Assembly: GCA_019057865.1 (NCBI GenBank)
Contig: JAHLWP010000048.1
Coordinates: 1-25,034, forward strand
DNA length: 25,034 bases
Direction: 5' to 3'
Origin: Promethearchaeota archaeon
Lineage (GTDB): Archaea; Asgardarchaeota; Lokiarchaeia; Sigyniarchaeales; SOKP01
The notes below the pieces were generated by a model that was given only the letters and a program-made list of their open reading frames with translations, did not search any database and was not told where the DNA came from. Positions 1,756 to 15,486 of the stretch are shown here, piece by piece (the first letter of the stretch is position 1; each line of letters begins with the position of its first letter). Made by a program: the position numbers and the translations under genes.

Positions 1756-2052
1756 ATGGTACAGGATAAAGAAGAAATTCTCAAAATGCTTAAAAAATTA
1801 AAAGCTGAAATTAAGAAAAATTATAAAGTGAAAAAAATTGGATTATTCGGGTCATATGTAAATAATAAGCAAAAAGAGACAAGTGATATCGATTTTTTAA
1901 TTGAATTTGAAGATGATGCTGATTTATTCCATTATATTGGGTTATCCCTCTTTTTAGAAGATCATTTTAATAGAAAGGTTGATGTGATATCAAAACCTAC
2001 ATTGAAAAAAGAATTAAGGGAACAAATTCTTCAAGAGGTAATATATGTCTAA
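1756..2052 (+). CDS. Minimal nucleotidyltransferase (MNT) antitoxin
   Basis: 98 aa with GLFGSY...SDIDFLIEF and C-terminal RKVDVI. Overlaps the start of a DUF86-like gene, the standard MNT-HEPN arrangement. Confidence 0.92.
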   Translation: MVQDKEEILKMLKKLKAEIKKNYKVKKIGLFGSYVNNKQKETSDIDFLIEFEDDADLFHYIGLSLFLEDHFNRKVDVISKPTLKKELREQILQEVIYV

Positions 2053-2410
2053 AAATTTTACAATTTACTTAAATGATATTAGAGAAGCAATAAATAGCAT
2101 AGAAATTTTTGTAGAAGGAATGACCTTTGAAGAATTTAAAAATGATGATAAAACTTCGAGTGCAGTTATTCGAAAATTTAGAAAAAATCTACATAAACTC
2201 ATTGAAGAAATTAATAATTACAATCAGATTTTTATAGAAAAGCGATTAAAAAATTATTCTTCCTTTTTAGATGGAAAAGATGATGGATTAAAGTATCCCT
2301 TAGATGAAGAACAAAGATTAGCCGTAATAAAAGATGATAAACATAACCTTGTAATTGCGGGAGCTGATTTCTTTAATATTTTATTTAATTTCTTATTCTT
2401 ATTATTATAA
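2045..2410 (+). pseudogene. Chimeric remnant: truncated HEPN/DUF86 toxin N-terminus fused in frame to a fragment of a UvrD/helicase IV-like protein
   Basis: aa 1-45 (YLNDIREAINSIEIFVEGMTFEEFKNDDKTSSAVIRKF) are typical of DUF86, but the EIIGEA and RxxxxH motifs are missing. aa 46-107 (PLDEEQRLAVIKDDKHNLVIAGA) match the SF1 helicase Q-motif and start of Walker A, broken before GSGKT. Confidence 0.8.
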
Positions 2411-2563: not shown

Positions 2564-3880
2564 CTAAAAATTTTTTTGATTATATCTTCTTACTTCTTTA
2601 TCAACAATTTTAGTTTTAATTTCGCTTGTTAACATTTCAAAGTTTTCATATTCTATCCTATCAAGACCTTGTAGATCAGCGGGAATCTTTTCTCCTCGCT
2701 TATGAATTATGTAAAATAGCTTTTTTGCGCCTCTAGCTAACCCTAATTCTAATGTTACATTTGGATTACTATTTGTTATATCATAAATCCCAAATTGCGT
2801 AGTAGATATCATATGTTCAATTTTATCTAATATATGAGTTCCATTTCCCATGAGCTCCAAATCTGCATAATAACCGTTTAATTCAGTCTCTTCAAATGCA
2901 TGCTGAATAGACTGGGTAAGTTCACTTTTATCGCCACGACTAAAATCATAGGCAACAAAAAAATGATATTTTTTCTTCTTAATTCTTTGACAATATTTCA
3001 CAACCTCTTGTGGATTAGTCACTGCTCCAGATTCATCAAACCCACATAAATCATTAATAATTGTGGATAAAATAGGAGTTTGATCAATAAATAGGGTCTT
3101 TAAGTTTACTAATTTTTCCAATCCTTTAATTTGAGTTATATTATTTCCTTTTAAGTTAAGGATCTCTAAATTTTTGAGATTTTCTAAAGATTTTATTTCC
3201 GAAATATAATTTTCTTCTAAATTTAATTCATTTAAAGTTATAAGAGATTCTAAACCTGCCATATCTTCTATACTGTTCTCATACAATTCTAAAACTTCTA
3301 ATCTCTTGAGATTTTTAAGACCTTTTATATCTTTAATATAATTCTCTCTTAAATTTAGAGTTTCTAAATTCATAAGAGAATCAAGTCCCTGAATTTTAGA
3401 TAATTGATTATAACTAAAATCTAAAACCCATAACTTATTTAAAGAATCAAGCCCTTTAATTTCAGATATCGAATTATTTGATAAATAAAATTCTTCTAAA
3501 TGCGTAAGATGATCCAGTCCTTTAATTTCAGTTATTTGATTACCATTTAAATTAAGAATTTCTAGAAATGTAAGATTTTCAAGCCCTTTAATCTCATTTA
3601 TTAGATTTTTCGCTAAGTTAAGTACTTCTAAATGTTCCAGTGTATTTAACCCGTTTATTTCTTTAATTTGGTTATCACTCAGGTCTAATTGTTCTAAATT
3701 AATGAGCTTTTTTAGACCTTTGATCTTGGAAATATTATTTCTACTTAAGTTCAAGACAGTTAGATCTGTAAGCTTAGTTAAGCCCTTAATTTTAGTTATA
3801 TCTTCTATATTTTTTGAACTTAAGTCTAATTCCCCTGATTTTAATTCATATTTAATTCCCTTATAAATTACATAAGTCAT
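2564..3880 (-). CDS. SDS22/internalin-type LRR protein with C-terminal nucleoside-deoxyribosyltransferase/TIR-like domain
   Basis: About 11 22-aa repeats LxxLxLxxNxIxxIxGLxxL. C-terminal FFVAYDF...QFGIYDITNSNPNVTLELGLARG...IPADLQG, where NPNVxxELGxA is the NDT-like catalytic motif. Confidence 0.85.
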   Translation of the reverse strand: MTYVIYKGIKYELKSGELDLSSKNIEDITKIKGLTKLTDLTVLNLSRNNISKIKGLKKLINLEQLDLSDNQIKEINGLNTLEHLEVLNLAKNLINEIKGLENLTFLEILNLNGNQITEIKGLDHLTHLEEFYLSNNSISEIKGLDSLNKLWVLDFSYNQLSKIQGLDSLMNLETLNLRENYIKDIKGLKNLKRLEVLELYENSIEDMAGLESLITLNELNLEENYISEIKSLENLKNLEILNLKGNNITQIKGLEKLVNLKTLFIDQTPILSTIINDLCGFDESGAVTNPQEVVKYCQRIKKKKYHFFVAYDFSRGDKSELTQSIQHAFEETELNGYYADLELMGNGTHILDKIEHMISTTQFGIYDITNSNPNVTLELGLARGAKKLFYIIHKRGEKIPADLQGLDRIEYENFEMLTSEIKTKIVDKEVRRYNQKNF

Positions 3881-3928: not shown

Positions 3929-6031
3929 TTATTCATTTTTCTCGGGATTAATTAATCTTAAAACCTCTTTGCCGAAAATTTCACTAAAAATGTCCTTCAT
4001 TTCGGGAGTTAAGTTATAAACACCTAATCTTTGATTAGTTTGGATTAATTCACTTCCTAACTCTTTTTCAACTTTCTTTATATATGTGAATATCTTCTGG
4101 TTTAGCCAATCAGATGGCCTATTTTTAAGGAAAAAAATTACTTTGAACCTGTTTCCGCAGATAAAATCGCCCATAACAAAACGTTTTTCATAACTTATCG
4201 ATAAGTTTTTCCCAGATTTAAATTCAGTTGCTATATCATCTAAAGCTTTAAAATATCCACCAAGAACATTGACATCAACATCTCCTATTGTTTGCATAAA
4301 TTCTTTATGAAAAATTACAGTACCACTTTCTGCATTTTGAATTAATATCAATTGGAGATTATCAATGTCAGGATCTTTTATATATGGGAGAGAGATAAAA
4401 TTGTTAATTTCTTTATCAGAATTTTTAATTATTTTATATAAATAATAAGGCTTTTTAATGTACTTCGCGTCTAGGATACTTTTCCAGAGTGGATCTTTAA
4501 TAAGTTCTGAAATAGCACCTTGAGAATCCTCTATCAAACATAATGGTACTCCAAATGCGATAGCAATGTAATATTCTAAAATATTTATATAATTACCATC
4601 AATTCCAATCATTTTTATTTCATTTAACTTAGCTGGAGAATTTAATATATCAAACCAATATTGAAAAATGATCGCTAAACATTCATCTAAAAGCACTGGT
4701 TTTTTGCGTACAATTTTTCCGATTATCTGTTTAAATTCAGTTCTTTGTGGTTCATATAAATAAGCTTTATAATTAGAGGTAAATGTATAAAAACCTAATA
4801 TTAATTTTTCTATATCATCGTTGTTGCAACCAGATATTAGGACTCCATCAAATTTGTTAAAAACATTGCTTAAATTCGTAATTAATTCGTTCAATTTGAG
4901 AGAACCATAGCTAGAAACACCACCTGCAGATATTACTATTGAATTTTCTAATTTAGGTAAAGTTACGTTAAGTTCTTCATTAATTAACTTATCTTTAATT
5001 TCTTTCCATTTATTAGTATTTTGGATCCCTAATTTTTTTAGAAAGAATCCTATACTTAATAAGAATAGAACTCTAACTTGTTTAAATCCAGGAATTTCCT
5101 CTTGAACTACTGTGGCTAATTCTAATGTTTTTAACGTAGTTTCTATAGTCCAAATATCTGGACTATCTCTTATTCCTAATAAAAAATAATAAAAACCTAA
5201 TTCAGTATTACCTAAAAACAAATGGAGGGTTCCTAAATCATAGAAAGCCCAAGGAATGTCTTCAGATTTTTTTATTTGCTCTTTTCTCTTTTGTATAGCT
5301 AGTTCTATATATTTCATATAACGTTTAATTGGCTTTATCTTTTTCTTAAGAGCAATTTCCAAAAGAATTACATTAACTAGCGGATAAGAGTAATCGCGAG
5401 CTAATTTCCATGCTTCTAAATAATAATTACAGGCTTTTTTATTGTCAATATATTTCCATCTTCCTCCTAAAATGGAATATGCATCAGAATCTTTTGGGTT
5501 TATTTGAATGGCATTTTCTAAGTAATCTAATCCCTCATTATATTCCAAAAAGGAATCAATAGATAATTTTGTTTTATAAAATCCTAGTTCTCTATATATT
5601 CGTGCTTTAATTTCTGACCTTGATTCTTTTTGGATATTTTCTTTTAAAACTCCTTCTAAAATTGCTACTGAATTTTTCCAATCCTCCATTCCTGAATATA
5701 TTTTAGCAATTTCAAGGGCTATTTCAATCTTTTCATTATTATTCTGAGATTTGGCATAGTTTGATCTTAAGGTATCGATTTCCTGATATTTCTGATAAGG
5801 ATCTCCATAGAGTGTGAAACCATATTCATATTCTTTAATTTTTCTAAAGATTTTATTCATTTGAACATTAAAAAGATTAAAACTTTCAAATAAATTATTC
5901 TTAATTTTTTCAAAAACTATAGATCTCTCTACTTTTTCAGTATCCTCGTAATATCTCTTTTTAAGTTCTTTTACTCTCTCTTCTAATAGTTTATTAAATT
6001 CCTCATAAGAACATAATTCTTTCTCATCCAT
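3929..6031 (-). CDS. TPR + degenerate SLOG + C-terminal longin-like domain protein (paralog of 6063-8072 lacking the synthetase domain)
   Basis: TPR motifs (IYRELGFY, DAYSILGGRWK, DIPWAFYDLG) are collinear with the neighbouring gene. SLOG-like region (SIVISAGG, GVLISG, IGIDGN..LEYYIA). The last ~140 aa (LILIQNAESGTVIF...GYFKALDDIATEF...RPSDWL...VEKELG) resemble Asgard longin-like domains. Confidence 0.7.
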   Translation of the reverse strand: MDEKELCSYEEFNKLLEERVKELKKRYYEDTEKVERSIVFEKIKNNLFESFNLFNVQMNKIFRKIKEYEYGFTLYGDPYQKYQEIDTLRSNYAKSQNNNEKIEIALEIAKIYSGMEDWKNSVAILEGVLKENIQKESRSEIKARIYRELGFYKTKLSIDSFLEYNEGLDYLENAIQINPKDSDAYSILGGRWKYIDNKKACNYYLEAWKLARDYSYPLVNVILLEIALKKKIKPIKRYMKYIELAIQKRKEQIKKSEDIPWAFYDLGTLHLFLGNTELGFYYFLLGIRDSPDIWTIETTLKTLELATVVQEEIPGFKQVRVLFLLSIGFFLKKLGIQNTNKWKEIKDKLINEELNVTLPKLENSIVISAGGVSSYGSLKLNELITNLSNVFNKFDGVLISGCNNDDIEKLILGFYTFTSNYKAYLYEPQRTEFKQIIGKIVRKKPVLLDECLAIIFQYWFDILNSPAKLNEIKMIGIDGNYINILEYYIAIAFGVPLCLIEDSQGAISELIKDPLWKSILDAKYIKKPYYLYKIIKNSDKEINNFISLPYIKDPDIDNLQLILIQNAESGTVIFHKEFMQTIGDVDVNVLGGYFKALDDIATEFKSGKNLSISYEKRFVMGDFICGNRFKVIFFLKNRPSDWLNQKIFTYIKKVEKELGSELIQTNQRLGVYNLTPEMKDIFSEIFGKEVLRLINPEKNE

Positions 6032-6062
6032 TTTATAAAAAACCTTTATTTTTCAATTGTTA

Positions 6063-8072
6063 TTAATATTTTGTTATAAAAAATTCAATATCCTTTTCTG
6101 TGTTTTCTAATAATTTCAACCGGGGCTTTTTGCCAATTTGAAAATCTTTCCAATTGGGATCTTGAATTAAAAGATCTGCACTACGTCCACTTCCTTCTAA
6201 TATGCCTAATTTTGCATTAAAAATTAATGCTATATAATATTCTAACCTTGCGATGTTTCCTCCACCAATTCCTAAGACTTTAACAAATTTACTTTGAATA
6301 TTACTTCCCCAGATATCTAACCAATAAGAAACTGCTTCCTTAATAGTAAAACCTAATCCATCAGTGTGCCTAATTTCACAATAACGATTGTCAATCTTTT
6401 CACTATCAGGTATTTCCTTTGGCACGTATCCTATGCTTTTAATTTTTTCACTATATAATTCTTCAAGCTGACCTCCAAAAGCACTTACACCTGCTAAGGT
6501 TCCTCCAGAGATTAAAGTCCCTTCATATTTATTAAATCCACTAAGAACATTTTTTTGATATTTTTCAATTAATTCCTCATCCTCATTTCTGGTAGAGCCA
6601 ATTATTATAACAACAGGAGGTTCAATCTTACTATATGATGATTTATAATATGATTTTAATCTATTTATTGCAGGCTCATCATCATATTTAAATGCAAGAC
6701 TTAATAATAGTAGGTTTTGGATCAAATCTAATCCAGGGAATAAATCTTTGAAGTTAGAAAGCAAATTTAATGTTTTAAATGTAGTTGATATCATCCAATC
6801 ATGATTAGAATATCGTACACCAAGAAGATAATTAATAAAGCTGTTCTGGAAATTACCAAGAAATAAATTAAAAAGACCTATATTATAATATGCCCATGGA
6901 ATATCAATTTCCAATTCAATTTGAGTATTACACCTTTCAATAGCATCTAAAATGAAAGGTTTTGATATTGTGATTAGATCTAGATTCCTCAATTTCCTTA
7001 ACTCATAAATTAAGTAGTTACCTAAAGAATATGCGTCGTGCGGATTTATCGCGAATGCTTTTTCATAACAATCCCGAGCTTTATCCTCATCAAAATCTTT
7101 ATAATAGCCTCCTAAAATTGCCATCGCATCCCAATCTAATGGATCCAATTGAATGACTTTCTTTAAATAAGATTCTGCTTTTTGGTATTCTTGGCTATCT
7201 TTTTTGTAATAACGTCTTATGGCAAAACCTAATTCTCTAAGTATAGGTGCTTTATCTAAATGGGCATATTTAGATAGTAAATTCACGACTCTTGACCAAT
7301 CTCCTATGTTTCTAGCCAATAACGCCATCTTATAAACAGTATCCACATTCTCAGTGTCAGCCTCATGAATAATCTGAAGAACTTCGAGTTTTTTAGTGAT
7401 TTCTTTTTCACTCAGATATCCACCAAAATTGGTTTCATAATCTTTTATTATCATTTTTATTCGGGAAATAGATTCGTCAATTTGTTCTAGGAGTGCTGCA
7501 GATCTATGAAACTCTCTTTTCCACTGATCCTTTAACTTATACGCTCCTTTATATCCTAAATCATGATATATGGAAGCATATGCATGTTCATTTATTGTAC
7601 GGACTTGAATCTCTGCTTTCTGCGACAAATAAGATTTAGGGATGTTCAAATCCTTATATAATGGAGAAGTTTCTTTTAAAGTAATTGAATAGGAATCAGT
7701 TCGATATCCAAACTCTGATACTGCTAAACTATCAACTTTATTCTTGCCTATGCTAGGATCAATTATAAAATTTTCTTTAATTAGCATAGATGCTCTTTTT
7801 ACGTCATCTATAGTTGGTAAAATAAGCCGTATTCCACATATATCTGTCATTTCTGTTATGGGATCTTTATAGTGTGGCTGACGTAGGATTTTTTCTGCAA
7901 AACTTGTTAACGATTTTACTCTAGTTTGTATTATATATTCTGTTGCGATTTGTTTGCCTATTCTATGCAGAATTTTTTTCAGGATTTTGTTGAATTTAAT
8001 GAATTGTGAATATCTTTCTTTATATAAATTTAGTTGTTCTTTAATTAGCAATTTTCTCTCTTCTTTCATCAC
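6063..8072 (-). CDS. RelA/SpoT-type alarmone synthetase domain + TPR + SLOG fusion
   Basis: Synthetase motifs RVKSLTSFAEK, DICGIR, FGYR, EIQVRT, HAYASIYHDLGYK. Central TPRs (ILRELGF, DAMAILGGYYKD, IPWAYYNIG). SLOG motifs VVIIIGST, LISGGTLAGVSAFGG, VLGIGGGNIARLEY. No HD hydrolase, TGS or ACT domain. Confidence 0.85.
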   Translation of the reverse strand: MMKEERKLLIKEQLNLYKERYSQFIKFNKILKKILHRIGKQIATEYIIQTRVKSLTSFAEKILRQPHYKDPITEMTDICGIRLILPTIDDVKRASMLIKENFIIDPSIGKNKVDSLAVSEFGYRTDSYSITLKETSPLYKDLNIPKSYLSQKAEIQVRTINEHAYASIYHDLGYKGAYKLKDQWKREFHRSAALLEQIDESISRIKMIIKDYETNFGGYLSEKEITKKLEVLQIIHEADTENVDTVYKMALLARNIGDWSRVVNLLSKYAHLDKAPILRELGFAIRRYYKKDSQEYQKAESYLKKVIQLDPLDWDAMAILGGYYKDFDEDKARDCYEKAFAINPHDAYSLGNYLIYELRKLRNLDLITISKPFILDAIERCNTQIELEIDIPWAYYNIGLFNLFLGNFQNSFINYLLGVRYSNHDWMISTTFKTLNLLSNFKDLFPGLDLIQNLLLLSLAFKYDDEPAINRLKSYYKSSYSKIEPPVVIIIGSTRNEDEELIEKYQKNVLSGFNKYEGTLISGGTLAGVSAFGGQLEELYSEKIKSIGYVPKEIPDSEKIDNRYCEIRHTDGLGFTIKEAVSYWLDIWGSNIQSKFVKVLGIGGGNIARLEYYIALIFNAKLGILEGSGRSADLLIQDPNWKDFQIGKKPRLKLLENTEKDIEFFITKY

Positions 8073-8104: not shown

Positions 8105-11100
8105 TTATTCTCTAGATAATTCTTGTAATATCCTTTCTGTTTTATGAACAAAACGCCTGTATTTTTTTGGATCTATTTTCTCTAATTCTTTATTTAATTC
8201 AAGAACTTCATTAAATATAGTTTTTGATAGATTTAATCTGCCAATCTTTCTGTATAAGTAACCTAAATTACTCTTGATTATTGCTTTAAATTTTAACTGG
8301 ATTTTAGATTTAATATTTATTAATTTATCATTATTATTTAATGCTTTTAGATACATTTTTTCAGCTTTATCATAGATTCCTAAATCCTCAAATGATAATC
8401 CTACATAATTTTCAATCTTCATGAGTTCTTCTCTATATAAATAAGAATTTGATACTGAGGGAAAATCAATTAAATCTACTGAAATCATGGGGGTTATCTT
8501 AACCATCTCTAATTTATCAAAATTCTGATAAAAGAGCCTTATATCGTCAAAAATATCGTTAATATATTTTAGTTGCTTTCCTGGGTTATCTTCTTCTAGA
8601 TCTAATATATAGTCTAAAGCTAATGCGAAATTTCTTTTGGTACTCATGAACTTTTTAAATTCTGATTGTATTAATGCTCTTTCATGATGAAGACAAGCAA
8701 GATACTTTGAACATTTCTTGTATATCTTTGCCTGTTTAAAAACCTCAATTGCGTTATGATTACTGATCAAAGCTTCATTTTTTAAATTGAATTTAAAATA
8801 AAGGTGTGAGAGAACTAAATGTACCTTAGCTAAAGATATTAAGTAAAATTCAGGATTAAAATCTGCCAATTCTTCATAATCTTTTTTGCTTTTAAATAAA
8901 GCTTCTTCTGCTTCATTAAATTTGTCTAATTTATTGTAAAGACTTCCTAATTCTTTTTTAACTTTAGCTAAACGAGGAAAAAATATTTTAGGATTGATTT
9001 CTGCTATTCTTTGGTATATTTTTAAATCTAATAATTTTGCTCTAATTGCTTTATCATAGTGGTTTAGATCCATATAGAATTTACCAAGTTGATCTGTATA
9101 TATCTCAACATAGTGTAGAAAAATCTCTGGATATCTAAAAGCTAACCTTTTTCTGACTTTTTTTGCTGTTAAAAAACAAATCTCTGCGTCTTTTAATTTA
9201 TTTTGATTCAAATATATTTTAGCTAGATCATTATAAGTGGTATCTACATAATACAAAAATAATTCTGGATTCTTTTTTGAAAGTTTTAAGTTAATCTTCA
9301 ATGCTTCTTTATATGCATTTTCAGCTTCGAAAGGCTTATTTAAGCCACGGTAGAAATTACCTAATCGATTTTGTATATCCGCGACATTGTTTTCAAATAA
9401 ATCAGGATAGTATAAGGCTAGTTTTTGGGCTTTACTTAATGCTTTTAAAAAAGATTCTTCTGCTTCTTCAAATTTTTTTGATTTAGAATATAATGTTCCT
9501 AAATTACGATGAGACCAAAAGATACTTTTATCTATTTTGAAGGGCTTGCTTTTGCTAAGTAATTTCTTTATTTTTAATGATTCTTTGAATAATCTTTCGG
9601 ATTCATCGAAATCTTTCAAATTTATAAAAAGAAGGGCAAGTTGGTCCCATGTCCAAGCTTTGTAATATAAATAATATTCTGGATTTTTAATTGATAGATC
9701 TTCATAAATCTTTAATGCTTTTAAATGCATTTCCTTAGCAAATTCATATTTTTTCAGTTTTTTATAAATTGCGCCTAAGTTATTTTGTATCCACGCTAAA
9801 TCAGATAAATAAGTCTCAGGATCTCTCTCTGCTAATTTTTCTCTAATTTTTAAAGCTTTTAAAAACTCTTTTTGAGCTTTCTTCTTCATTTGTATCTGAT
9901 TGAATAATAATCCAAGATTTCCCCGCGTCCATGCTAAATCTGCTAGATAATCATTACGATCCGTCAATGTTAGTTCTTTTCTTATCTCTAAAGCTCGTTT
10001 AAATGAATTTTCTGACATTTTATAGCTTTTTTTTGCTTTATATAAAAGTCCTAAATTACCATAAGTCCATGCTAAATGTGGTAGGAATATATTGGGTTCT
10101 TTTTTAACTAAATTTAATTTGGCACTCAAAGCTAAATTATGAAAATCTTCCGCCTTATCATATCTTCTTAATTTCATACACAAGGTTCCCAATTTGTCAT
10201 GTACGTCAGCAATGTTATCTTGGTACAAATTAGGACTTAATTCTTCTAAATTAAGATAAATTTTTAATGCTTCATTGTAGGAATCCTCTGCCTTAGAGTA
10301 TCTTCGCGTAGTATAATAAAAAATTCCAAGCTGATAATATATTTTAGCTTTTAATTCACCTTCAAAAAATTCTTTTAATTTCTTTCCAAGCGTAACCAAC
10401 TTATTTAAGCTATATTGCTTTAATAATTCTGGGTTCTCGATACTTAAAAAATTTAATGCTAAATCTTCAGTAGTCTCCAATAATGAATTATGGTACATTA
10501 ATTCTGTAAAATCTTCCGGATTTTCACCGTATATTTCTTTCTTTTTGTTATAGTAATTCACAGCTAGCTGATGACTAATGGTGTCTACATCAAGTCCTAA
10601 TGACTCTTTTATATGATCATATATGAATTCATATGCCTCCTCTTGAATATCTTTCTTCTTTAAAAACCCAGCATTTATCAACTTTTTAAAGCTTGATTCA
10701 AAATCATTATCTTGATAAAGAGTTTCAATAACTCTTTTGTTAATATTATTTTCAATATCTGAATTTATAATTGACAAATTCTTTAATAGCTCGTACTCTT
10801 CATCAGAGAGAATTTCCATAACAATTCTGTTTAAATATTCCTCAGTTTTTTCAGAATCAACATTCAATATAATATTTGGATCAAAGATCTCCATTTTATC
10901 AACATTAATATGGTCATAGTTTCTCACAATTAACTCCATTGAAATAGGATGTCCTTCTGTTATATTACTTATCTTTTCTTTGTTCGAATCACTTATATTT
11001 TTATGAAAACGTTCGCTTAACATTTCGATATAATCAATTCTATCAACTTCATCTAATCCCTTGAGATGATGAATTCTTCGGGTATTACCAATCGACTTTC

Positions 11101-12097
11101 GCGAAGAGCAAATAACAAAATCTAAATATTTCACTAAATTTCTCACATCTGAATCAGCAAGATGAAAATCATCAATGAGCAAATGAACTTCTCTTTTTTC
11201 AATTAATTCTGAAATTTTTTTAAACTTAATTTCTTTAACTTCTTGTTTAAGCTCGTTGGTATCAGGAATATATCTTGATAATGCATCAATCACATCATCC
11301 AATATTATCTCATTTCTAAAAACTCTATGATATACATCCCGACATTTATTTTTAAAGATTTTATATCCTGAGCCTGTGATGTAAAATTGTCTAGGGCCTA
11401 AAGCAATTATTTGTTTTCCTCTTAATTTCTGCAATAATAATATCACCTGAATTAGAGAAGTTTTTCCAATACCCCCAACACCATAAACCTCAATACTCTC
11501 ATCTAAATTGTTCATTAAATATGCAATTGATGATCTTCTATTGTAAAAATCTTCCAGTTTCAACTGTCCTTTTGAGTACCATTCAACAATATTATTTACT
11601 AAATGATCAGTAATTGTATTTACGATTCCAGTATCTTCAATATTTTGTATTTTAAAATAATTCTCTTTACCAACTTCTTCAAGAAATTGTTTCACTTTAT
11701 CTTCGATATTTATTTCATTCGATATTGTTGAAGTAGTTTTGACCTTAGAGTACTCAGGAATAAAGTAAGATTGATGTAATATCCCTTCTGCTTCAGTTAC
11801 TTTATATTCGCAGTGGGTATAGGATATTGGTTCATTTTTTATCTTCAGTGGACAATTTTCTGCTTTGCAATCTTCAATATTACACTCGTTCAATAAAGTA
11901 CCATAAAAAGGAGTTATTAAAAAAATTACGATATCACTTTTCCTAATCTCCCTTATACTCACATCTTGCGAGTAATTGCCATTTGGAATAAAATTTTCCA
12001 TCCCCACTCCATCAATGCTTTCATTTAAAGCATCAAGTATCAATTCCCTAAAATTTTCTAGATCTTTTGAAGTGGAACTTAAAAAAACTCTAAGCAT
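8105..12097 (-). CDS. NLR-like STAND NTPase: DUF4062 (TIR-like) - NB/AAA - TPR array
   Basis: N-terminal RVFLSSTSKDL...SDIVIFLITPFYG...SYTHCEY (DUF4062). Walker A GVGGIGKT, Walker B LLIDDFH, GHP motif and a wHTH-like region. About 15 TPR units of ~46 aa (LAxxxxNLGxLY...ALxI). Confidence 0.9.
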   Translation of the reverse strand: MLRVFLSSTSKDLENFRELILDALNESIDGVGMENFIPNGNYSQDVSIREIRKSDIVIFLITPFYGTLLNECNIEDCKAENCPLKIKNEPISYTHCEYKVTEAEGILHQSYFIPEYSKVKTTSTISNEINIEDKVKQFLEEVGKENYFKIQNIEDTGIVNTITDHLVNNIVEWYSKGQLKLEDFYNRRSSIAYLMNNLDESIEVYGVGGIGKTSLIQVILLLQKLRGKQIIALGPRQFYITGSGYKIFKNKCRDVYHRVFRNEIILDDVIDALSRYIPDTNELKQEVKEIKFKKISELIEKREVHLLIDDFHLADSDVRNLVKYLDFVICSSRKSIGNTRRIHHLKGLDEVDRIDYIEMLSERFHKNISDSNKEKISNITEGHPISMELIVRNYDHINVDKMEIFDPNIILNVDSEKTEEYLNRIVMEILSDEEYELLKNLSIINSDIENNINKRVIETLYQDNDFESSFKKLINAGFLKKKDIQEEAYEFIYDHIKESLGLDVDTISHQLAVNYYNKKKEIYGENPEDFTELMYHNSLLETTEDLALNFLSIENPELLKQYSLNKLVTLGKKLKEFFEGELKAKIYYQLGIFYYTTRRYSKAEDSYNEALKIYLNLEELSPNLYQDNIADVHDKLGTLCMKLRRYDKAEDFHNLALSAKLNLVKKEPNIFLPHLAWTYGNLGLLYKAKKSYKMSENSFKRALEIRKELTLTDRNDYLADLAWTRGNLGLLFNQIQMKKKAQKEFLKALKIREKLAERDPETYLSDLAWIQNNLGAIYKKLKKYEFAKEMHLKALKIYEDLSIKNPEYYLYYKAWTWDQLALLFINLKDFDESERLFKESLKIKKLLSKSKPFKIDKSIFWSHRNLGTLYSKSKKFEEAEESFLKALSKAQKLALYYPDLFENNVADIQNRLGNFYRGLNKPFEAENAYKEALKINLKLSKKNPELFLYYVDTTYNDLAKIYLNQNKLKDAEICFLTAKKVRKRLAFRYPEIFLHYVEIYTDQLGKFYMDLNHYDKAIRAKLLDLKIYQRIAEINPKIFFPRLAKVKKELGSLYNKLDKFNEAEEALFKSKKDYEELADFNPEFYLISLAKVHLVLSHLYFKFNLKNEALISNHNAIEVFKQAKIYKKCSKYLACLHHERALIQSEFKKFMSTKRNFALALDYILDLEEDNPGKQLKYINDIFDDIRLFYQNFDKLEMVKITPMISVDLIDFPSVSNSYLYREELMKIENYVGLSFEDLGIYDKAEKMYLKALNNNDKLINIKSKIQLKFKAIIKSNLGYLYRKIGRLNLSKTIFNEVLELNKELEKIDPKKYRRFVHKTERILQELSRE

Positions 12098-12322: not shown

Positions 12323-13656
12323 TTATTCATGTAAAACAATTTCTCTCCAATTTGGCTCAATATCACTTAAAATAAAATCCAGGATCTCTTCGGCAACAGG
12401 TTTTATGAGATCCTCCCCTGTTAAAGAAACATCAATCAAAAAATCAATAGTAGTATATCCAATATTGATCAACTCAAAGCGTATTTGTTCGTGTTTTCTT
12501 TCAGAATCATACATATCTTCTGGAGAAACAAATCTTAATTGATAGTAATCATGAATTAGATCATTAATTCTAGTAATTAATTTATCATCCCTCTCTCCGA
12601 ATTCAAATTCGAACTTAGGTAATTCAACATCAATATTATCATGAATTGATTTCAACCTTTCTATTATAAATCGTGTTTTTAAATCTGGATCGTGATCTAA
12701 TAGATTTTCTGCTAAATCAATCTCACCAGCATCTATTTCCAAAAAGGAGAAGGGAAGAGTACTTAAATTATTATCTGATAAAAACAAATATTGAAATTCC
12801 ATACGACCAAATGATTCTGGGAGACTTGAAATTATATTATGGCTTAAATCTAAAATTCCAAGATAATTTAAATCTACAATAGAATCAGGCAAAAATTCTA
12901 TTTTATTATTTGATAAACTTAAAAAATCAAGATGTTTTAACTCATCAATCCATCCTGGAAGTGATTCTAGATTAACGTTATCTAAAATCAATGCATTTAA
13001 GTTCTCAATTTTCCTTAAAGATTCAGGTATTCGTTCTATATTACAATTACATATTCCAATTCCGTCAATTGCATTATTTTCATTTATTAATAAAGCAAGT
13101 TTTTCAAAATCATAATTAATTCTTCAAAAGATTCCAAATAAATGAAGAATTCACCAGTTATAGATTCAATTTCTTCAAGAACTTCAACTTCTTGTTTTGG
13201 CAAGTACACACCCCTAAAAAATCTGCGTTCAACTTTAGGTTTAGGTGGAGTTTCACTTTGAATCAATTCTAAAATTAGTTTAATATGGTCTAGTAGTTTA
13301 TTTAAATGATTTTCTAAAGAAGCACCAATCGCGTTATACCACTGTATATCACCAAGATAATATTCGAACTTTCCACTCGGCTCGACATCTTCAATTCTAA
13401 ATGGGATGATATTAATCTCATTCTTTCCTCCTATAGTCAACTCCCTTCCTACATGTTTTGATAAATTAGCTTGTTTTGAGAAAACAAGTAAAATTAGATT
13501 GGAATTTTTAATTGCATTTACAATTGAATTTTCCCATTGACTTCCAGGTGTAGCATCACGATGATCGATCCAACACTTAATATCATGCGTCTCTAAATAA
13601 TCGCAGAGTGTATTAGCTATTGAATCATCTTTACTTGAATGGCTTATAAAAATCAT
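12323..13656 (-). pseudogene. Frameshifted TIR-LRR-CTD gene (ORFs 13087-13656 and 12323-12991 are one gene), paralog of 20846-22180
   Basis: Changing frame near 13114-13121 gives NYDFEKLALLINENNAIDGIGICNCNIERIPESLRKIENLNALILDNVNL, which runs without a stop into ORF 12323-12991. It is collinear with the paralog's NNEFKNLGLLLSEENTVEGIGILDCNLEEMPESMRNIDNLNVLILDNTNL. Confidence 0.9.
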
Positions 13657-14034: not shown

Positions 14035-15486
14035 TTAGATCGAATTTTTTAATAAATCAAGTATTAATTGGTTAAAATATCTATTAGGATTTGTTTTTTC
14101 ATTAATCATTGGTTCAGAAGGTTTATAAAAGGATAATATCTTAAAAACAAGTCCGGAGCTTAAAATAATATTCCCAACTGTTTCTAATCCATGAGAATCA
14201 CTTCCAATTGTAAAAATTGGTTTTTTATCTGAGATGTTATATTTTGCATATTCTTTTACCATATTAAAAAAGAGTTCAATAACCTCTTCTAAGGAGTTTT
14301 TGGCATAATGGTTATAATTTGTATATTTTAAGTTGAAAATTTCGATTCCTTTTAGCCCTTTTTCTAATAATTCTGTAATATTTTCTTTTGTTTCATAATT
14401 GTAATAACCTACATGTGCTAATATGCTTATTCCAGAATGTTTATCTGCCCATTTAATAACCTCTTCAACAGGGACATTTCCCCAGAATTTCTTATCGTGG
14501 ATCCTATCTGTTGCTTTATTAAGAAGTTCATTTGTATATAAATCAAATCCTTTTAGCGCCCATCTTTGAAAATTGTCCAATTCAGGAAAATATACCAATA
14601 TATCTCTTCTATCATCAATCCAATCATTAGATTTTTTTATTCCGGTTGCCACTTCTATTCCCGGGATTACATCAATATTGAATATTGTACCAATCTTTAT
14701 TGCTTTACAAACACCATCAAAATTGTTGTGATCAGTAAGAGAAATTGTTTTTAGTCCAATTTCCTTAGCTTTACATAAAATTTCTCCTACAGATTGACTA
14801 CTACAATCAGAATAATGTGAATGAATGTGTAGGTCCATTAGAATCTGAGATTCACAAATATTTTTTGAATGCTTTTTAGGTATACTTGAAGTTACTAACA
14901 ATTTCTTTAGGCAATCCAATGCGATATCCACTAAGAAAGTTAAGATCTTGTCAAATAATTCATCAGAATAAAGTTTGATATCCTTAATAACTTCAAGATC
15001 GATTTTTTTTGAAGATTTATTTAAAACTCGGTCCTTAAATTCATATATTTCGAGGAATATATTCAGTCTTCTTAAATTCCTTATTATATTTGAAATTTTA
15101 TTTGAGTTATTTACTTTTTCCATGCAATAATTTATATACTTTAAATAATCGTTTTGGATAATATAATCTATAAGATCTTCTTTTCTAATCCTCCTTGCTT
15201 TATGCTTTATCTCCAAAAGACCATCAATGCCATATCCTTTTTGATGAATCTCTTTTCCATTAGAAAAATCAGGGTATTTTCCTTCAATTTTATGATTAAA
15301 TGGCTTAATTTTACGATTAAAACCCCAAAGCATTTCTTTAATCTGTTCTGAGGTCGTTAAAGTGTCACACCAATTTTTAAAAATAAGAAAAATTCTCTTT
15401 AATAGATTTTTTAGTGGTTTTTTTTGACTTTTTAAGATTTCATTAACCCTATCAGTTATATCTTCGCTATAATAATTGATCGACAT
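14035..15486 (-). CDS. PHP-family phosphoesterase with unknown ~215-aa N-terminal region
   Basis: DLHIHSHYSD, SLTDHN, IPGIEV, ILAH, GIE and GSDSH metal-binding motifs (TrpH/YciV-like). Confidence 0.88.
   Translation of the reverse strand: MSINYYSEDITDRVNEILKSQKKPLKNLLKRIFLIFKNWCDTLTTSEQIKEMLWGFNRKIKPFNHKIEGKYPDFSNGKEIHQKGYGIDGLLEIKHKARRIRKEDLIDYIIQNDYLKYINYCMEKVNNSNKISNIIRNLRRLNIFLEIYEFKDRVLNKSSKKIDLEVIKDIKLYSDELFDKILTFLVDIALDCLKKLLVTSSIPKKHSKNICESQILMDLHIHSHYSDCSSQSVGEILCKAKEIGLKTISLTDHNNFDGVCKAIKIGTIFNIDVIPGIEVATGIKKSNDWIDDRRDILVYFPELDNFQRWALKGFDLYTNELLNKATDRIHDKKFWGNVPVEEVIKWADKHSGISILAHVGYYNYETKENITELLEKGLKGIEIFNLKYTNYNHYAKNSLEEVIELFFNMVKEYAKYNISDKKPIFTIGSDSHGLETVGNIILSSGLVFKILSFYKPSEPMINEKTNPNRYFNQLILDLLKNSI

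What the first reader, a model, noticed from the sequence alone, without database searches (positions are those of the whole stretch)
3929..8072. Tandem paralog pair: active-looking enzyme plus pseudo-partner that traded its synthetase for a longin-like domain
Seen: the two proteins align from the end of the synthetase helix (IKDYETNFGGY / IKEYEYGFTLY) through the TPRs (DIPWAYYNIG / DIPWAFYDLG; YLLGVRYS..WMISTTFKTL / FLLGIRDS..WTIETTLKTL) to SLOG (LEYYIA in both). In the second copy the glycine-rich ligand loops are degenerate (ISGGTLAG to ISGCNNDD; GIGGG to GIDGN), the synthetase is gone, and a ~140-aa longin-like domain is added (about 3960-4360). Established: longin domains are eukaryotic-signature GTPase-regulating modules expanded in Asgard archaea. 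Inference: a heterodimeric inhibitor/adaptor that couples the effector to small-GTPase signalling, or an integrated decoy.
Basis: partly seen in the sequence, partly recalled or inferred. Interest (0 to 1): 0.72.

Follow-up and report, generated by a model that had tools for sequence, protein, structure and literature searches.

The report
Synthetase-less longin partner of RelA-SLOG enzyme
Two neighbouring, related genes in an Asgard archaeon encode an intact alarmone-synthetase-type enzyme with a nucleotide-sensing (SLOG) domain and a conserved non-catalytic relative with a eukaryote-like longin domain. They most likely work together in an undescribed TIR-linked immune-type signalling system.

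Summary
The 669-aa and 700-aa minus-strand genes are paralogs (29% identity over 502 aa, E 6e-47).

- **Upstream gene:** an intact RelA/SpoT synthetase domain, TPRs and a canonical LSDAT-type SLOG domain.
- **Downstream gene:** no synthetase. The SLOG glycine loop is lost in all seven partner-type sequences aligned. The ~150-aa C-terminus folds confidently (pLDDT 91) as a longin-type domain; all 50 listed structural matches are longin or roadblock proteins.

The interpretation needs correcting. The longin domain was not gained in exchange for the synthetase. Sister species carry one ~850-aa chain, RelA-TPR-SLOG-longin. The partner nests inside that clade (100/99 support), and an AU test rejects a local duplication (p 0.0075). 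So the partner is a four-domain protein that lost its synthetase.

It is not a relic. dN/dS is about 0.3-0.4, and it lies directly downstream of the enzyme gene in all five other contigs that carry it whole. The family repeatedly sits beside TIR or DUF4062 genes, so a Thoeris-like conflict system is the best reading.

The longin-coding block alone has been swapped between near-identical strains (47-64% against 92-97% nucleotide identity). Physical pairing and small-GTPase coupling remain unshown. This scan had already found the single-chain form in other genomes; the split pair and the cassette swap are new.

The parts
8105..12097 (-). Upstream operon gene (1330 aa): DUF4062 (TIR-like) N-terminus, weak STAND/AAA_16 NTPase match, long TPR array
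   Evidence: Pfam DUF4062 51 bits, TPR_12 149 bits; AAA_16 and nSTAND6 are below their cut-offs. A 78%-identical ortholog lies upstream of the enzyme gene in L008, and its C-terminus is present in L010.
6063..8072 (-). Enzyme gene (669 aa): RelA/SpoT synthetase + TPR-S-like TPRs + canonical SLOG
   Evidence: ORF; Pfam; it is the only RelA_SpoT match in the genome.
7473..8072 (-). RelA/SpoT nucleotide pyrophosphokinase domain (residues 1-200), catalytic motifs intact
   Evidence: PF04607 54 bits. Aligns to the small alarmone synthetases 3l9d, 2be3 and YjbM, E 2e-9. RVK..S..EK, DICGIR, EFGYR, EIQVRT and H..YK are kept. This block is only 71-77% identical in DNA to L010 but 93-97% to L004.
6663..7472 (-). 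TPR region of the enzyme (residues 201-470)
   Evidence: TPR-S 26.2 bits, just under its 27.6 cut-off; TPR_2 and TPR_1 matches are also under their cut-offs.
6066..6662 (-). SLOG (LSDAT_prok) domain of the enzyme (residues 471-669) with family-typical glycine loops
   Evidence: PF18171 28.5 bits, cut-off 25.4. ISGGTLAG, and its close ortholog P0033 reads the same in the motif alignment. GIGGG and SGRS are present, and these glycines are invariant in the enzyme-centred alignment.
6032..6062 (-). 31-nt spacer between the two genes (the genes overlap in orthologous loci)
   Evidence: ORF coordinates. In L003 the partner start overlaps the enzyme end by 23 nt, and in L004 by 1 nt.
3929..6031 (-). 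Partner gene (700 aa): short helical N-terminus + TPRs + pseudo-SLOG + longin-like domain; no synthetase
   Evidence: ORF. Orthologs at 79, 69, 47 and 44% identity and 80% in L010. dN/dS 0.30-0.38.
5864..6031 (-). N-terminal ~56 residues with no detectable similarity to the synthetase
   Evidence: hhalign of the partner N-termini against the Rel domain alignment matches only the linker helix (residues 53-77 against 197-221).
4997..5863 (-). TPR region of the partner (residues 57-345), its most constrained part
   Evidence: TPR-S 18.8 bits, below cut-off. Aligned with the enzyme's TPRs. dN/dS 0.20-0.23.
4388..4996 (-). Pseudo-SLOG (residues 346-548): Rossmann-like fold kept, glycine-rich motif 2 lost
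   Evidence: Homologous to the enzyme's SLOG, but no Pfam match. Motif columns. AF2 pLDDT 83; Foldseek matches include the small Rossmann-fold protein TM1055 (1rcu) and the N-terminal part of TRPM2/4/5/8 at E 4e-4 to 1e-2, mixed with other Rossmann folds.
3932..4387 (-). Longin-like C-terminal domain (residues 549-700)
   Evidence: AF2 pLDDT 91. Only longin or roadblock matches, top Z 10.6. The nearest ESM Atlas clusters are mostly Promethearchaeota proteins.
3930..4410 (-). Swapped allele block that coincides with the longin domain
   Evidence: DNA identity to L010, L011 and L004 is 47-64% here and 92-97% over most of the rest of the two genes; both flanks resume at 87% or more. dS is 1.5-2.0 here against 0.17 in the TPR part of the same gene.
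2564..3880 (-). Downstream operon gene (438 aa): LRR array + C-terminal TIR-like domain (CAP12/PCTIR type)
   Evidence: LRR_4 161 bits; CAP12-PCTIR_TIR 24.6 bits against a 24.7 cut-off; PADLOC TIR effector and PycTIR models match weakly. Orthologs directly follow the partner in L003 (72%) and L010 (88%).

Best explanation
**Shown**

- The organism is an Asgard archaeon (Promethearchaeota, Loki-type). The two genes sit inside a four-gene minus-strand unit: DUF4062-STAND-TPR, enzyme, partner, LRR-TIR-like. The unit lies in an island of TIR-LRR genes.
- Gene 1 is an intact RelA/SpoT-type nucleotide pyrophosphokinase fused to TPRs and a canonical SLOG nucleotide-binding domain.
- Gene 2 is a diverged member of the sister lineage, which normally carries RelA/SpoT, TPR, SLOG and longin in one chain. 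It has lost the synthetase completely and its SLOG glycine loop has decayed. It keeps constrained TPRs and a longin-fold domain.
- Gene 2 is under purifying selection and is tightly coupled to gene 1.

**Inferred mechanism**

- TIR proteins of the island make an NAD-derived signal on sensing an invader.
- The SLOG and TPR part of gene 1 receives that signal and switches on the RelA/SpoT domain. Its product (an alarmone-type nucleotide, or pyrophosphorylation of a target) arrests the cell or the virus.
- Gene 2 is a non-catalytic regulatory subunit. It associates with gene 1 through the shared TPR-SLOG core and supplies in trans the longin module that sister species carry in cis.
- The longin module is the exchangeable interface (assembly, target or trigger recognition), because it alone is swapped as a cassette between near-identical strains.
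For: **Paralogy and domains.**

**Longin fold.**

**Single-chain relatives.** About 850-aa RelA-TPR-SLOG-longin proteins occur in Heimdall- and Promethearchaeia-labelled assemblies and in 7 complete copies (plus one frameshifted) among sampled species of the same family.

**Origin of the partner.** Its core nests in the longin clade (100/99), on a stem of 1.24 substitutions per site. The alternative 'enzyme + partner are one clade' is rejected, p-AU 0.0075.

**Co-occurrence.** The partner is always immediately downstream of the enzyme gene: window, L003, L004, L005, L010, L011. Starts overlap in L003 and L004.

**Selection.** dN/dS is about 0.2 for the enzyme and 0.30-0.38 for the partner (TPR 0.20-0.23, pseudo-SLOG 0.30-0.48, longin 0.23-0.31).

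**TIR or DUF4062 neighbours.** Found in the window, L003, L008, L010, L029, L034, L035, L038 and L039.

**Accessory distribution.** Matches in 16 of 301 genomes of the phylum, and in 8 of 21 other sampled species of the same genus.

**Cassette swap.**

**Precedent from the literature.** The SLOG domain of ThsA binds TIR-made 3'cADPR. A TPR of this kind is proposed to perceive cADPR in newer Thoeris types (bioRxiv 10.64898/2025.12.03.692087).
Against: - No direct evidence that the two proteins bind.
- The enzyme type occurs without a partner gene next to it: L008/L009 at 83% identity, with the same upstream gene, and more distant copies in G243, G255 and G123. The partner is therefore not indispensable to it. 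The L008 assembly does carry a single-chain longin form elsewhere.
- Several single-chain longin-clade proteins have decayed synthetase motifs. That lineage may therefore act without catalysis, and possibly independently of any enzyme.
- TPR-S matches are below the Pfam cut-off.
- No signal, product or defence phenotype is known for any member.
- The clade tested in the AU test was defined after the tree was seen, and the partner sits on a long branch.
Confidence: 0.55

Rival explanations
1. GTPase adaptor. The partner's longin domain binds a small Ras/Arf/Rag-like GTPase and couples the synthetase to GTPase signalling, as longin and roadblock platforms do in TRAPP, Ragulator and MglB.
For: The fold matches GTPase-regulating longin and roadblock proteins, including Asgard roadblock and longin structures. 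The genome has 69 Ras-family matches. Of 21 ORFs in this genome matching the domain profile, 4 are within 1 kb of, or overlap, a Ras-family match, against 0.97 expected (P about 0.016). One 376-member Atlas cluster fuses a similar fold to Arf/Roc/Ras. A Ras-family gene lies directly upstream of the single-chain form in L035.
Against: No Ras-family match lies on the window's 25-kb contig. None of the partner loci has a GTPase gene next door, and among the single-chain loci only L035 does. The four GTPase-adjacent ORFs are among the eight weakest matches to the profile (E 3e-9 to 4e-4); the closest in-genome relatives are not adjacent. With about one GTPase gene per 60 kb, a single adjacency can be chance. 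A shared fold does not show a shared function.
Confidence: 0.12
2. Independent sensor or decoy. The partner does not bind the enzyme. It acts alone, for example as a longin-shaped bait for viral proteins that target host longin or roadblock machinery, or as a TPR-based receiver with a non-enzymatic output. Linkage reflects only a shared defence island.
For: The longin block is exchanged as a cassette between strains whose flanks are 92-97% identical, as expected for a surface in conflict with invaders. The host has about 20 other proteins with related domains that could be mimicked. Single-chain relatives with decayed synthetase motifs suggest the lineage works without catalysis. An LRR-TIR-like gene directly follows the partner in the window, L003 and L010, and a truncated partner plus an LRR fragment persist together in G177 and G129 without the enzyme.
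Against: Every intact partner found is immediately downstream of, and often overlaps, the enzyme gene. The only enzyme-less copies are truncated. The window's longin allele has no BLASTP match to any other host ORF at E 1e-3, so no specific mimicked host protein is identified. Within the swapped block dN/dS is 0.23-0.31, not above 1.
Confidence: 0.2
3. Antitoxin-like inhibitor. The RelA/SpoT enzyme is a toxic small alarmone synthetase of the toxSAS kind, and the partner's essential role is to hold it inactive until a trigger arrives.
For: RelA/SpoT toxins with adjacent or fused neutralisers are known defence modules (CapRel and FaRel-type toxSAS; from my own knowledge). The PADLOC candidate PDC-S33 matches the synthetase domain, E 5e-14. 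The two genes are tightly, apparently translationally, coupled.
Against: An 83%-identical enzyme gene exists without any partner next to it in L008/L009, and other enzyme-only loci exist. The enzyme is therefore tolerated without an adjacent neutraliser. The enzyme carries its own TPR-SLOG regulatory module.
Confidence: 0.1
4. Decaying relic. The partner is a degenerating duplicate with no function.
For: It has lost the catalytic domain and the SLOG motifs and sits on a very long stem branch. Truncated remnants exist in G177 and G129.
Against: The 700-aa frame is open. Orthologs down to 44% identity keep the full architecture. dN/dS is 0.30-0.38 overall and 0.2 in the TPRs. Both domain models are confident.
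Confidence: 0.03

Closest known systems
Single-chain Asgard RelA/SpoT-TPR-SLOG-longin proteins (~840-870 aa; e.g. P0013, P0014, P0020, P0044/P0080)
   Same: Homologous TPR-SLOG core and the same C-terminal longin-type domain (E 1e-17 to 1e-23). They form one clade with the partner (100/99) and have TIR or DUF4062 neighbours.
   Different: They are one polypeptide with a synthetase-like N-terminus, decayed in several, and a canonical SLOG motif 2. The window splits the functions over two genes: an intact enzyme from the sister clade, and a synthetase-less, SLOG-degenerate longin protein.
Thoeris anti-phage systems (type I ThsB TIR + ThsA SIR2-SLOG; type III multi-TIR + SLOG effector; types VII/VIII with the TPR-containing effector ThsI)
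   Same: TIR-domain genes sit next to an effector that carries a SLOG and/or TPR signal-receiving module. Several TIR genes occur per locus.
   Different: The effector domain is RelA/SpoT, not SIR2, Macro or the others. The host is archaeal. There is an extra pseudo-paralog with a longin domain. No signal molecule or defence phenotype is known here.
RelA/SpoT-TPR-SLOG-RyR proteins (sister branch, e.g. P0041, P0043 from an Altiarchaeales archaeon, P0045-P0054)
   Same: Same three N-terminal modules in the same order; clear homologs (E 1e-60 to 1e-135).
   Different: The C-terminal module is a RyR domain (PF02026), not longin. They form a separate clade (100/100).
Toxic small alarmone synthetases in defence and toxin-antitoxin modules (toxSAS: CapRel, FaRel, PhRel)
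   Same: A RelA/SpoT synthetase domain used as an effector with an adjacent or fused regulator. The PADLOC candidate PDC-S33 matches the synthetase domain.
   Different: toxSAS proteins are small and lack TPR-SLOG. Their neutralisers are unrelated small proteins or a fused C-terminal domain, not a paralog of the enzyme's own sensor part. (The toxSAS features are from my own knowledge.)
Longin/roadblock GTPase platforms (TRAPP Bet5/Trs23, AP sigma/mu N-terminal domains, Mon1-Ccz1, LAMTOR, MglB, Asgard roadblock and Roadblock-Longin proteins)
   Same: Same fold and, for the longin group, the same order of elements including both C-terminal helices; Z 7-10.6.
   Different: No sequence-level match to any Pfam family. 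Here it is fused to a nucleotide-sensor scaffold. No GTPase partner has been identified.

Membership tests
RelA/SpoT (RSH) synthetase domain - gene 1 | Profile match above the curated cut-off | tested here: met
   PF04607 54 bits, cut-off 27, residues 50-176. phmmer finds the small alarmone synthetases 3l9d, 2be3 and YjbM, E 2e-9 to 3e-8.
RelA/SpoT (RSH) synthetase domain - gene 1 | Catalytic and substrate motifs (R.K..S..K; D..G.R; GY.; EIQ.RT; H..YK) | tested here: met
   RVKSLTSFAEK, DICGIR, EFGYR, EIQVRT and HDLGYK are present and conserved across the enzyme clade. The GYRSxH segment reads GYRTDSY.
RelA/SpoT (RSH) synthetase domain - gene 1 | Pyrophosphate transfer from ATP, and the identity of the acceptor | not testable with these tools
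   Needs an enzyme assay.
RelA/SpoT (RSH) synthetase domain - gene 2 | Any detectable synthetase domain | tested here: not met
   No Pfam match. The local Rel HMM gives no hit. hhalign matches only the linker helix.
SLOG / LSDAT_prok - gene 1 | Profile match above cut-off and glycine-rich loops | tested here: met
   PF18171 28.5 bits, cut-off 25.4. The translation reads ISGGTLAG, GIGGG and SGRS. These glycines are invariant in the enzyme-centred alignment, and the enzyme orthologs read the same in the motif alignment.
SLOG / LSDAT_prok - gene 2 | Homology to, and fold of, a SLOG domain | tested here: met
   Aligned with gene 1's SLOG inside the 502-aa BLASTP match. AF2 pLDDT 83 with a Rossmann-like fold. 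Foldseek matches to 1rcu and TRPM N-termini are weak (E 4e-4 to 1e-2) and mixed with other Rossmann folds. No direct Pfam match.
SLOG / LSDAT_prok - gene 2 | Glycine-rich ligand loops | tested here: not met
   Motif 2 (SGGTxxG) is replaced in all seven partner-type sequences aligned. Motifs 3 and 4 are partly replaced. Only the first-strand GG and one later G stay invariant.
TPR-S (PF20308) - both genes | Profile match above cut-off | tested here: inconclusive
   Gene 1 26.2 bits and gene 2 18.8 bits, cut-off 27.6. Relatives score 20-27 bits.
Longin domain - gene 2 C-terminus | Fold and order of elements (two strands, helix, three strands, two helices) | tested here: met
   DSSP order E15-22, E28-33, H43-59, E67-69, E74-80, E85-91, H97-123, H132-150 at pLDDT 91. 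Longin matches span residues 11-147: TRAPPC1 Z 10.6, Bet5-type 3cue_C Z 10.3, AP mu/sigma and VAMP7 Z 8-9.
Longin domain - gene 2 C-terminus | Sequence membership of a curated longin or roadblock family | tested here: not met
   No Pfam family matches even at E 10. The relatives found are only Asgard-type proteins without Pfam domains in that region.
Longin domain - gene 2 C-terminus | Binding or regulation of a small GTPase or SNARE | not testable with these tools
   Gene neighbourhood gives only weak hints.
Thoeris-like TIR signalling system | TIR-domain gene(s) adjacent to the effector | tested here: met
   Window: six TIR_2 genes (46-78 bits), a TIR-like LRR gene and a DUF4062 gene. TIR_2 or DUF4062 genes also lie next to relatives in L003, L008, L010, L029, L034, L035, L038 and L039.
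Thoeris-like TIR signalling system | Effector carries a signal-binding SLOG, Macro or TPR module | tested here: met
   LSDAT_prok SLOG above cut-off in gene 1.
Thoeris-like TIR signalling system | TIR makes an NAD-derived signal that activates the effector and protects against viruses | not testable with these tools
   Needs biochemistry and infection assays. TIR catalytic residues were not examined here.

The most novel reading that the evidence does not exclude
In Asgard archaea a TIR/SLOG nucleotide immune signal is read by a two-subunit receiver whose exchangeable longin module docks onto the host's eukaryote-like small-GTPase or roadblock machinery, or baits viral proteins that attack it. 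This would be a prokaryotic forerunner of eukaryotic longin/roadblock signalling platforms wired to innate immunity. The pseudo-paralog would be an early case of the enzyme-plus-pseudoenzyme pairs common in eukaryotic signalling.
Probability: 0.12. Interest if true: 0.85.

Novelty: new variant of a known kind. Interest (0 to 1): 0.58.

Why it matters
If the reading holds, Asgard archaea run a Thoeris-like TIR-to-SLOG signalling pathway with an alarmone-synthetase-type output, an effector class not reported in the Thoeris studies I could read. The pathway contains a longin-fold module, otherwise a hallmark of eukaryotic GTPase regulation.

The split pair is a natural dissection of the four-domain protein. 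It separates the catalytic, ligand-binding half from a non-catalytic half that carries the longin domain. That gives a direct experimental handle on what the longin module does.

The domain-precise swap of the longin block between otherwise near-identical strains marks that module as the polymorphic, probably conflict-facing, surface. My full-text searches found no paper that mentions Asgard, longin and RelA together.

Tried and rejected
- **Complex prediction.** Complex prediction of the two TPR-SLOG cores (469 + 492 aa, with alignments): no verdict, score 0.00, controls not run. This counts neither for nor against binding. Full-length proteins exceed the size limit, so longin-to-enzyme docking was not tried.
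- **RNA evidence.** No RNA run is listed among holders of the stretch, so nothing can be said on expression.
- **Laying metagenome contigs** from two other studies (X6, X7) on the operon. Relatives at 88% or more cover most of it but leave about 3980-4330 nearly uncovered, and two X7 contigs run into unlike sequence at 4397. This fits the cassette swap, but missing cover is not evidence. The swap rests.
- **Pfam** on the C-terminal domain, the pseudo-SLOG and the N-terminus of the partner: nothing useful.
- **PADLOC:** only PDC-S33 on the synthetase and weak TIR models on the LRR gene.
- **Profilin** as an Asgard marker: no match here or in any control genome, so uninformative. The 69 Ras-family matches, the archaeal SSU rRNA and the named relatives were used instead.
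- **Donor of the window's longin allele.** No nucleotide match elsewhere in the genome and no BLASTP match to other host ORFs. It is about equally far (41-47%) from all partner-type alleles, so the donor is unsampled.
- **Literature.** The paper that defined TPR-S (Burroughs and Aravind 2020, J Bacteriol) is not held. What I say about it comes from memory and from citations.
- **Rejected reading.** The pair is not a recent tandem duplication.

Full report
**What is there.**

The window is contig C38 of a 4.26-Mb genome. The genome is archaeal: its SSU rRNA scores 1454 bits on the archaeal model and 1116 on the bacterial one. It has 69 Ras-family GTPase matches. The closest named relatives of these proteins come from Promethearchaeia, Promethearchaeota and Heimdallarchaeota assemblies and from the LCGC14 marine-sediment metagenome. 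I read it as an Asgard archaeon of the Loki type.

Four genes lie head to tail on the minus strand:

| Window position | Length | Domains |
|---|---|---|
| 8105-12097 | 1330 aa | DUF4062 + weak STAND NTPase + TPRs |
| 6063-8072 | 669 aa | the 'enzyme' |
| 3929-6031 | 700 aa | the 'partner' |
| 2564-3880 | 438 aa | LRRs + TIR-like C-terminus of the CAP12/PCTIR type |

The rest of the window holds six TIR_2 genes, most with LRRs, and a HepT-like toxin gene. This is a conflict island.

**Checking the observation.**

- The enzyme and partner align over 502 residues (29% identity, E 6e-47), from the helix that ends the synthetase domain to the end of the SLOG domain.
- The enzyme has RelA_SpoT (54 bits) and LSDAT_prok SLOG (28.5 bits) above Pfam cut-offs. 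Its TPR-S match is just below (26.2 against 27.6).
- Its synthetase aligns with solved small alarmone synthetases and keeps the ATP, metal and catalytic motifs. It is the only RelA_SpoT match in the genome.
- The partner has no synthetase. Its first ~56 residues match nothing, and a profile-profile comparison recovers only the linker helix.
- In the SLOG region the family motif IISGGTxxG is conserved in the enzyme clade and in most single-chain relatives. It is replaced in every partner-type sequence. The later NGG and SGRAA motifs are partly replaced.
- The pseudo-SLOG still models as a Rossmann-like domain (pLDDT 83). Its weak matches to TM1055 and TRPM N-termini are mixed with other Rossmann folds.

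**The C-terminal domain.**

It has no Pfam match. An exhaustive HMMER search found it in 24 representative clusters. With that alignment AlphaFold2 gives pLDDT 91 and pTM 0.86, with the order strand-strand-helix-strand-strand-strand-helix-helix.

All 50 listed Foldseek matches, and all 50 listed VIA-align matches from a Foldseek-independent search of 48,161 chains, are longin or roadblock proteins:

- The best are TRAPPC1 (Z 10.6, 128 residues) and the TRAPP subunit in 3cue_C (Z 10.3).
- Longin matches cover both C-terminal helices. Roadblock matches stop before the last one.

The nearest ESM Atlas clusters are mostly Promethearchaeota proteins. So 'longin-like' is correct at the level of fold. 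It is not a member of any curated sequence family.

The domain was not added in exchange for the synthetase. Among the proteins carrying it, P0013, P0014, P0016, P0018, P0020, P0023 and P0044 are single chains of 840-870 residues with RelA_SpoT, TPRs, SLOG and this domain. Seven sampled species of the same genus or family carry a complete single-chain form, and an eighth carries a frameshifted copy. A sister branch carries a RyR domain in the same place.

A maximum-likelihood tree of the shared TPR-SLOG core gives three groups:

- RyR forms.
- The enzyme clade, which has no C-terminal tail (98/88).
- A longin clade (100/99). It contains the single-chain forms and, on a stem of 1.24 substitutions per site, the partner clade (100/100).

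Forcing enzyme and partner clades together costs 24 log-likelihood units (p-AU 0.0075). Two caveats apply: I named that group after seeing the tree, and the partner sits on a long branch.

The partner is thus a four-domain protein that lost its synthetase. It is not a recent copy of its neighbour. Several single-chain members of its clade already show decayed synthetase motifs, so complete loss is the end of a trend. An earlier follow-up in this scan had said the same (e1-5453175), and I confirmed it on my own alignment.

**Is the partner functional and linked to the enzyme?**

- Orthologs at 80, 79, 69, 47 and 44% identity keep the whole architecture.
- In every contig that holds an intact partner, the enzyme gene lies directly upstream. 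The contigs are L003, L004, L010 and L011, plus L005 where the upstream enzyme gene is in two pieces. In two of them the genes overlap.
- dN/dS against three orthologs is about 0.2 for the enzyme and 0.30-0.38 for the partner. The TPRs are most constrained (0.20-0.23).
- The reverse does not hold. An 83%-identical enzyme gene, with the same upstream DUF4062-STAND-TPR gene, lacks a partner in L008/L009. That argues against an obligatory antitoxin role. The same assembly carries a single-chain longin form at another locus.
- The only enzyme-less partner copies (G177, G129) are truncated to SLOG + longin and are followed by an LRR fragment.

**Context and mechanism.**

TIR_2 or DUF4062 genes lie next to family members of all three architectures in nine loci. 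The family is patchy: 16 of 301 genomes of the phylum, and 8 of 21 other sampled species of the same genus.

In Thoeris systems, TIR proteins make ADP-ribose-derived signals. These are bound by a SLOG domain (type I) or, as proposed, by a TPR of the Aravind type (types VII/VIII) (bioRxiv 10.64898/2025.12.03.692087).

The best-supported model is therefore a Thoeris-like pathway. Its receiver and effector is the RelA/SpoT-TPR-SLOG enzyme. The partner is a non-catalytic subunit that contributes the longin module. The signal, the enzyme's product and the physical pairing are all inferences.

**A new observation.**

Against L010, L011 and L004, the window is 92-97% identical in DNA over most of the enzyme and partner genes. 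Identity drops to 47-64% between about 4410 and 3930, which is exactly the longin domain. It returns to 87% or more on both sides, including the next gene. In the same gene pair dS is 1.5-2.0 in that block and 0.17 in the TPRs.

The window's allele is about equally distant (41-47%) from all known partner alleles, and it has no donor elsewhere in the genome. This is a domain-precise allele replacement.

The synthetase block of the enzyme shows the same kind of mosaic against L010 (71-77%) but not against L004. Module shuffling of this kind is typical of conflict systems. It singles out the longin domain as the variable interface.

**The GTPase idea.**

The genome has 21 ORFs matching the domain profile. 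Four of them lie within 1 kb of, or overlap, a Ras-family match, against about one expected (P about 0.016). One Atlas cluster fuses a similar fold to Arf/Roc/Ras. One single-chain locus has a Ras-family gene directly upstream.

But the window's contig has no Ras-family match. None of the partner loci has a GTPase gene next door, and among the single-chain loci only L035 does. The GTPase-adjacent ORFs are among the weaker matches to the profile. I keep this reading as a low-probability rival.

**Verdict.**

This is a new variant of a known kind: TIR-linked SLOG signalling, with a RelA/SpoT effector and a longin-bearing pseudo-paralog.

This scan had already reported the single-chain form in at least six other genomes. 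What this finding adds:

- the split enzyme/pseudo-partner arrangement,
- its origin by synthetase loss,
- purifying selection on the partner,
- the cassette swap.

Noticed in passing
window 7450-8072 (synthetase part of the enzyme gene): This block is only 71-77% identical in DNA to L010/L011 but 93-97% to L004, while the rest of the gene is 91-97% identical to all three. It is a second domain-sized mosaic block in the operon.
   Followed up: partly
own genome: C66:68665-74370, C71:7978-10269, 25938-28214, 28365-30644, 30783-33071, C19:7245-8546, C3:89168-90484, C54:42767-46321 and others: About 20 further ORFs carry a domain matching the partner's longin-type profile (E 5e-22 to 7e-5). They include four paralogous ~760-aa proteins on C71 and a 1901-aa protein. 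Nine of the ten scanned have no Pfam domain above its curated cut-off.
   Followed up: partly
own genome: C54:84150-86765, C52:35028-36869, C25:13124-13555, C24:9460-10359: These four longin-profile ORFs lie within 150 nt of, or overlap, a Ras-family GTPase match. That is 4 of 21 against 0.97 expected by random placement, P about 0.016.
   Followed up: partly
L035:9131-9691 (G147): A 186-aa Ras/Roc-family GTPase gene lies directly upstream, on the same strand, of a single-chain RelA-TPR-SLOG-longin gene. A 1689-aa NosD/beta-helix-TIR_2 gene lies on the other side.
   Followed up: no
L039:2255-6054: Next to another single-chain form lie a 555-aa TIR_2 gene and a ThiF (E1-like), Prok-JAB and UFC1-like (E2-like) gene set, a ubiquitin-type conflict module.
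   Followed up: no
window 12323-12991 and 13087-13656 (minus strand): A 189-aa TIR_2 ORF and a 222-aa LRR ORF lie head to tail, 95 nt apart. They look like one TIR-LRR gene split by a frameshift or stop.
   Followed up: no
window 14035-15486 (minus strand): A PHP-domain (phosphoesterase) protein sits inside the TIR-LRR array. It could be a signal-degrading or processing enzyme.
   Followed up: no
window 1756-2410 (plus strand): A 121-aa HepT-like ribonuclease ORF overlaps a preceding 98-aa ORF. It looks like a HEPN/MNT-type toxin-antitoxin pair at the edge of the island.
   Followed up: no
L031:7668-8711 (G177) and L032:4153-5034 (G129): Truncated partner-type genes (pseudo-SLOG + longin only, 49-51% identical to the window's partner) are followed by an LRR fragment related to the window's 438-aa gene. 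No enzyme gene is nearby, so the locus looks decayed.
   Followed up: partly
relatives P0041, P0043, P0045-P0054: The sister branch of the family ends in a RyR domain (PF02026, up to 62 bits) where the longin domain sits in the Asgard branch. One member is from an Altiarchaeales archaeon.
   Followed up: partly
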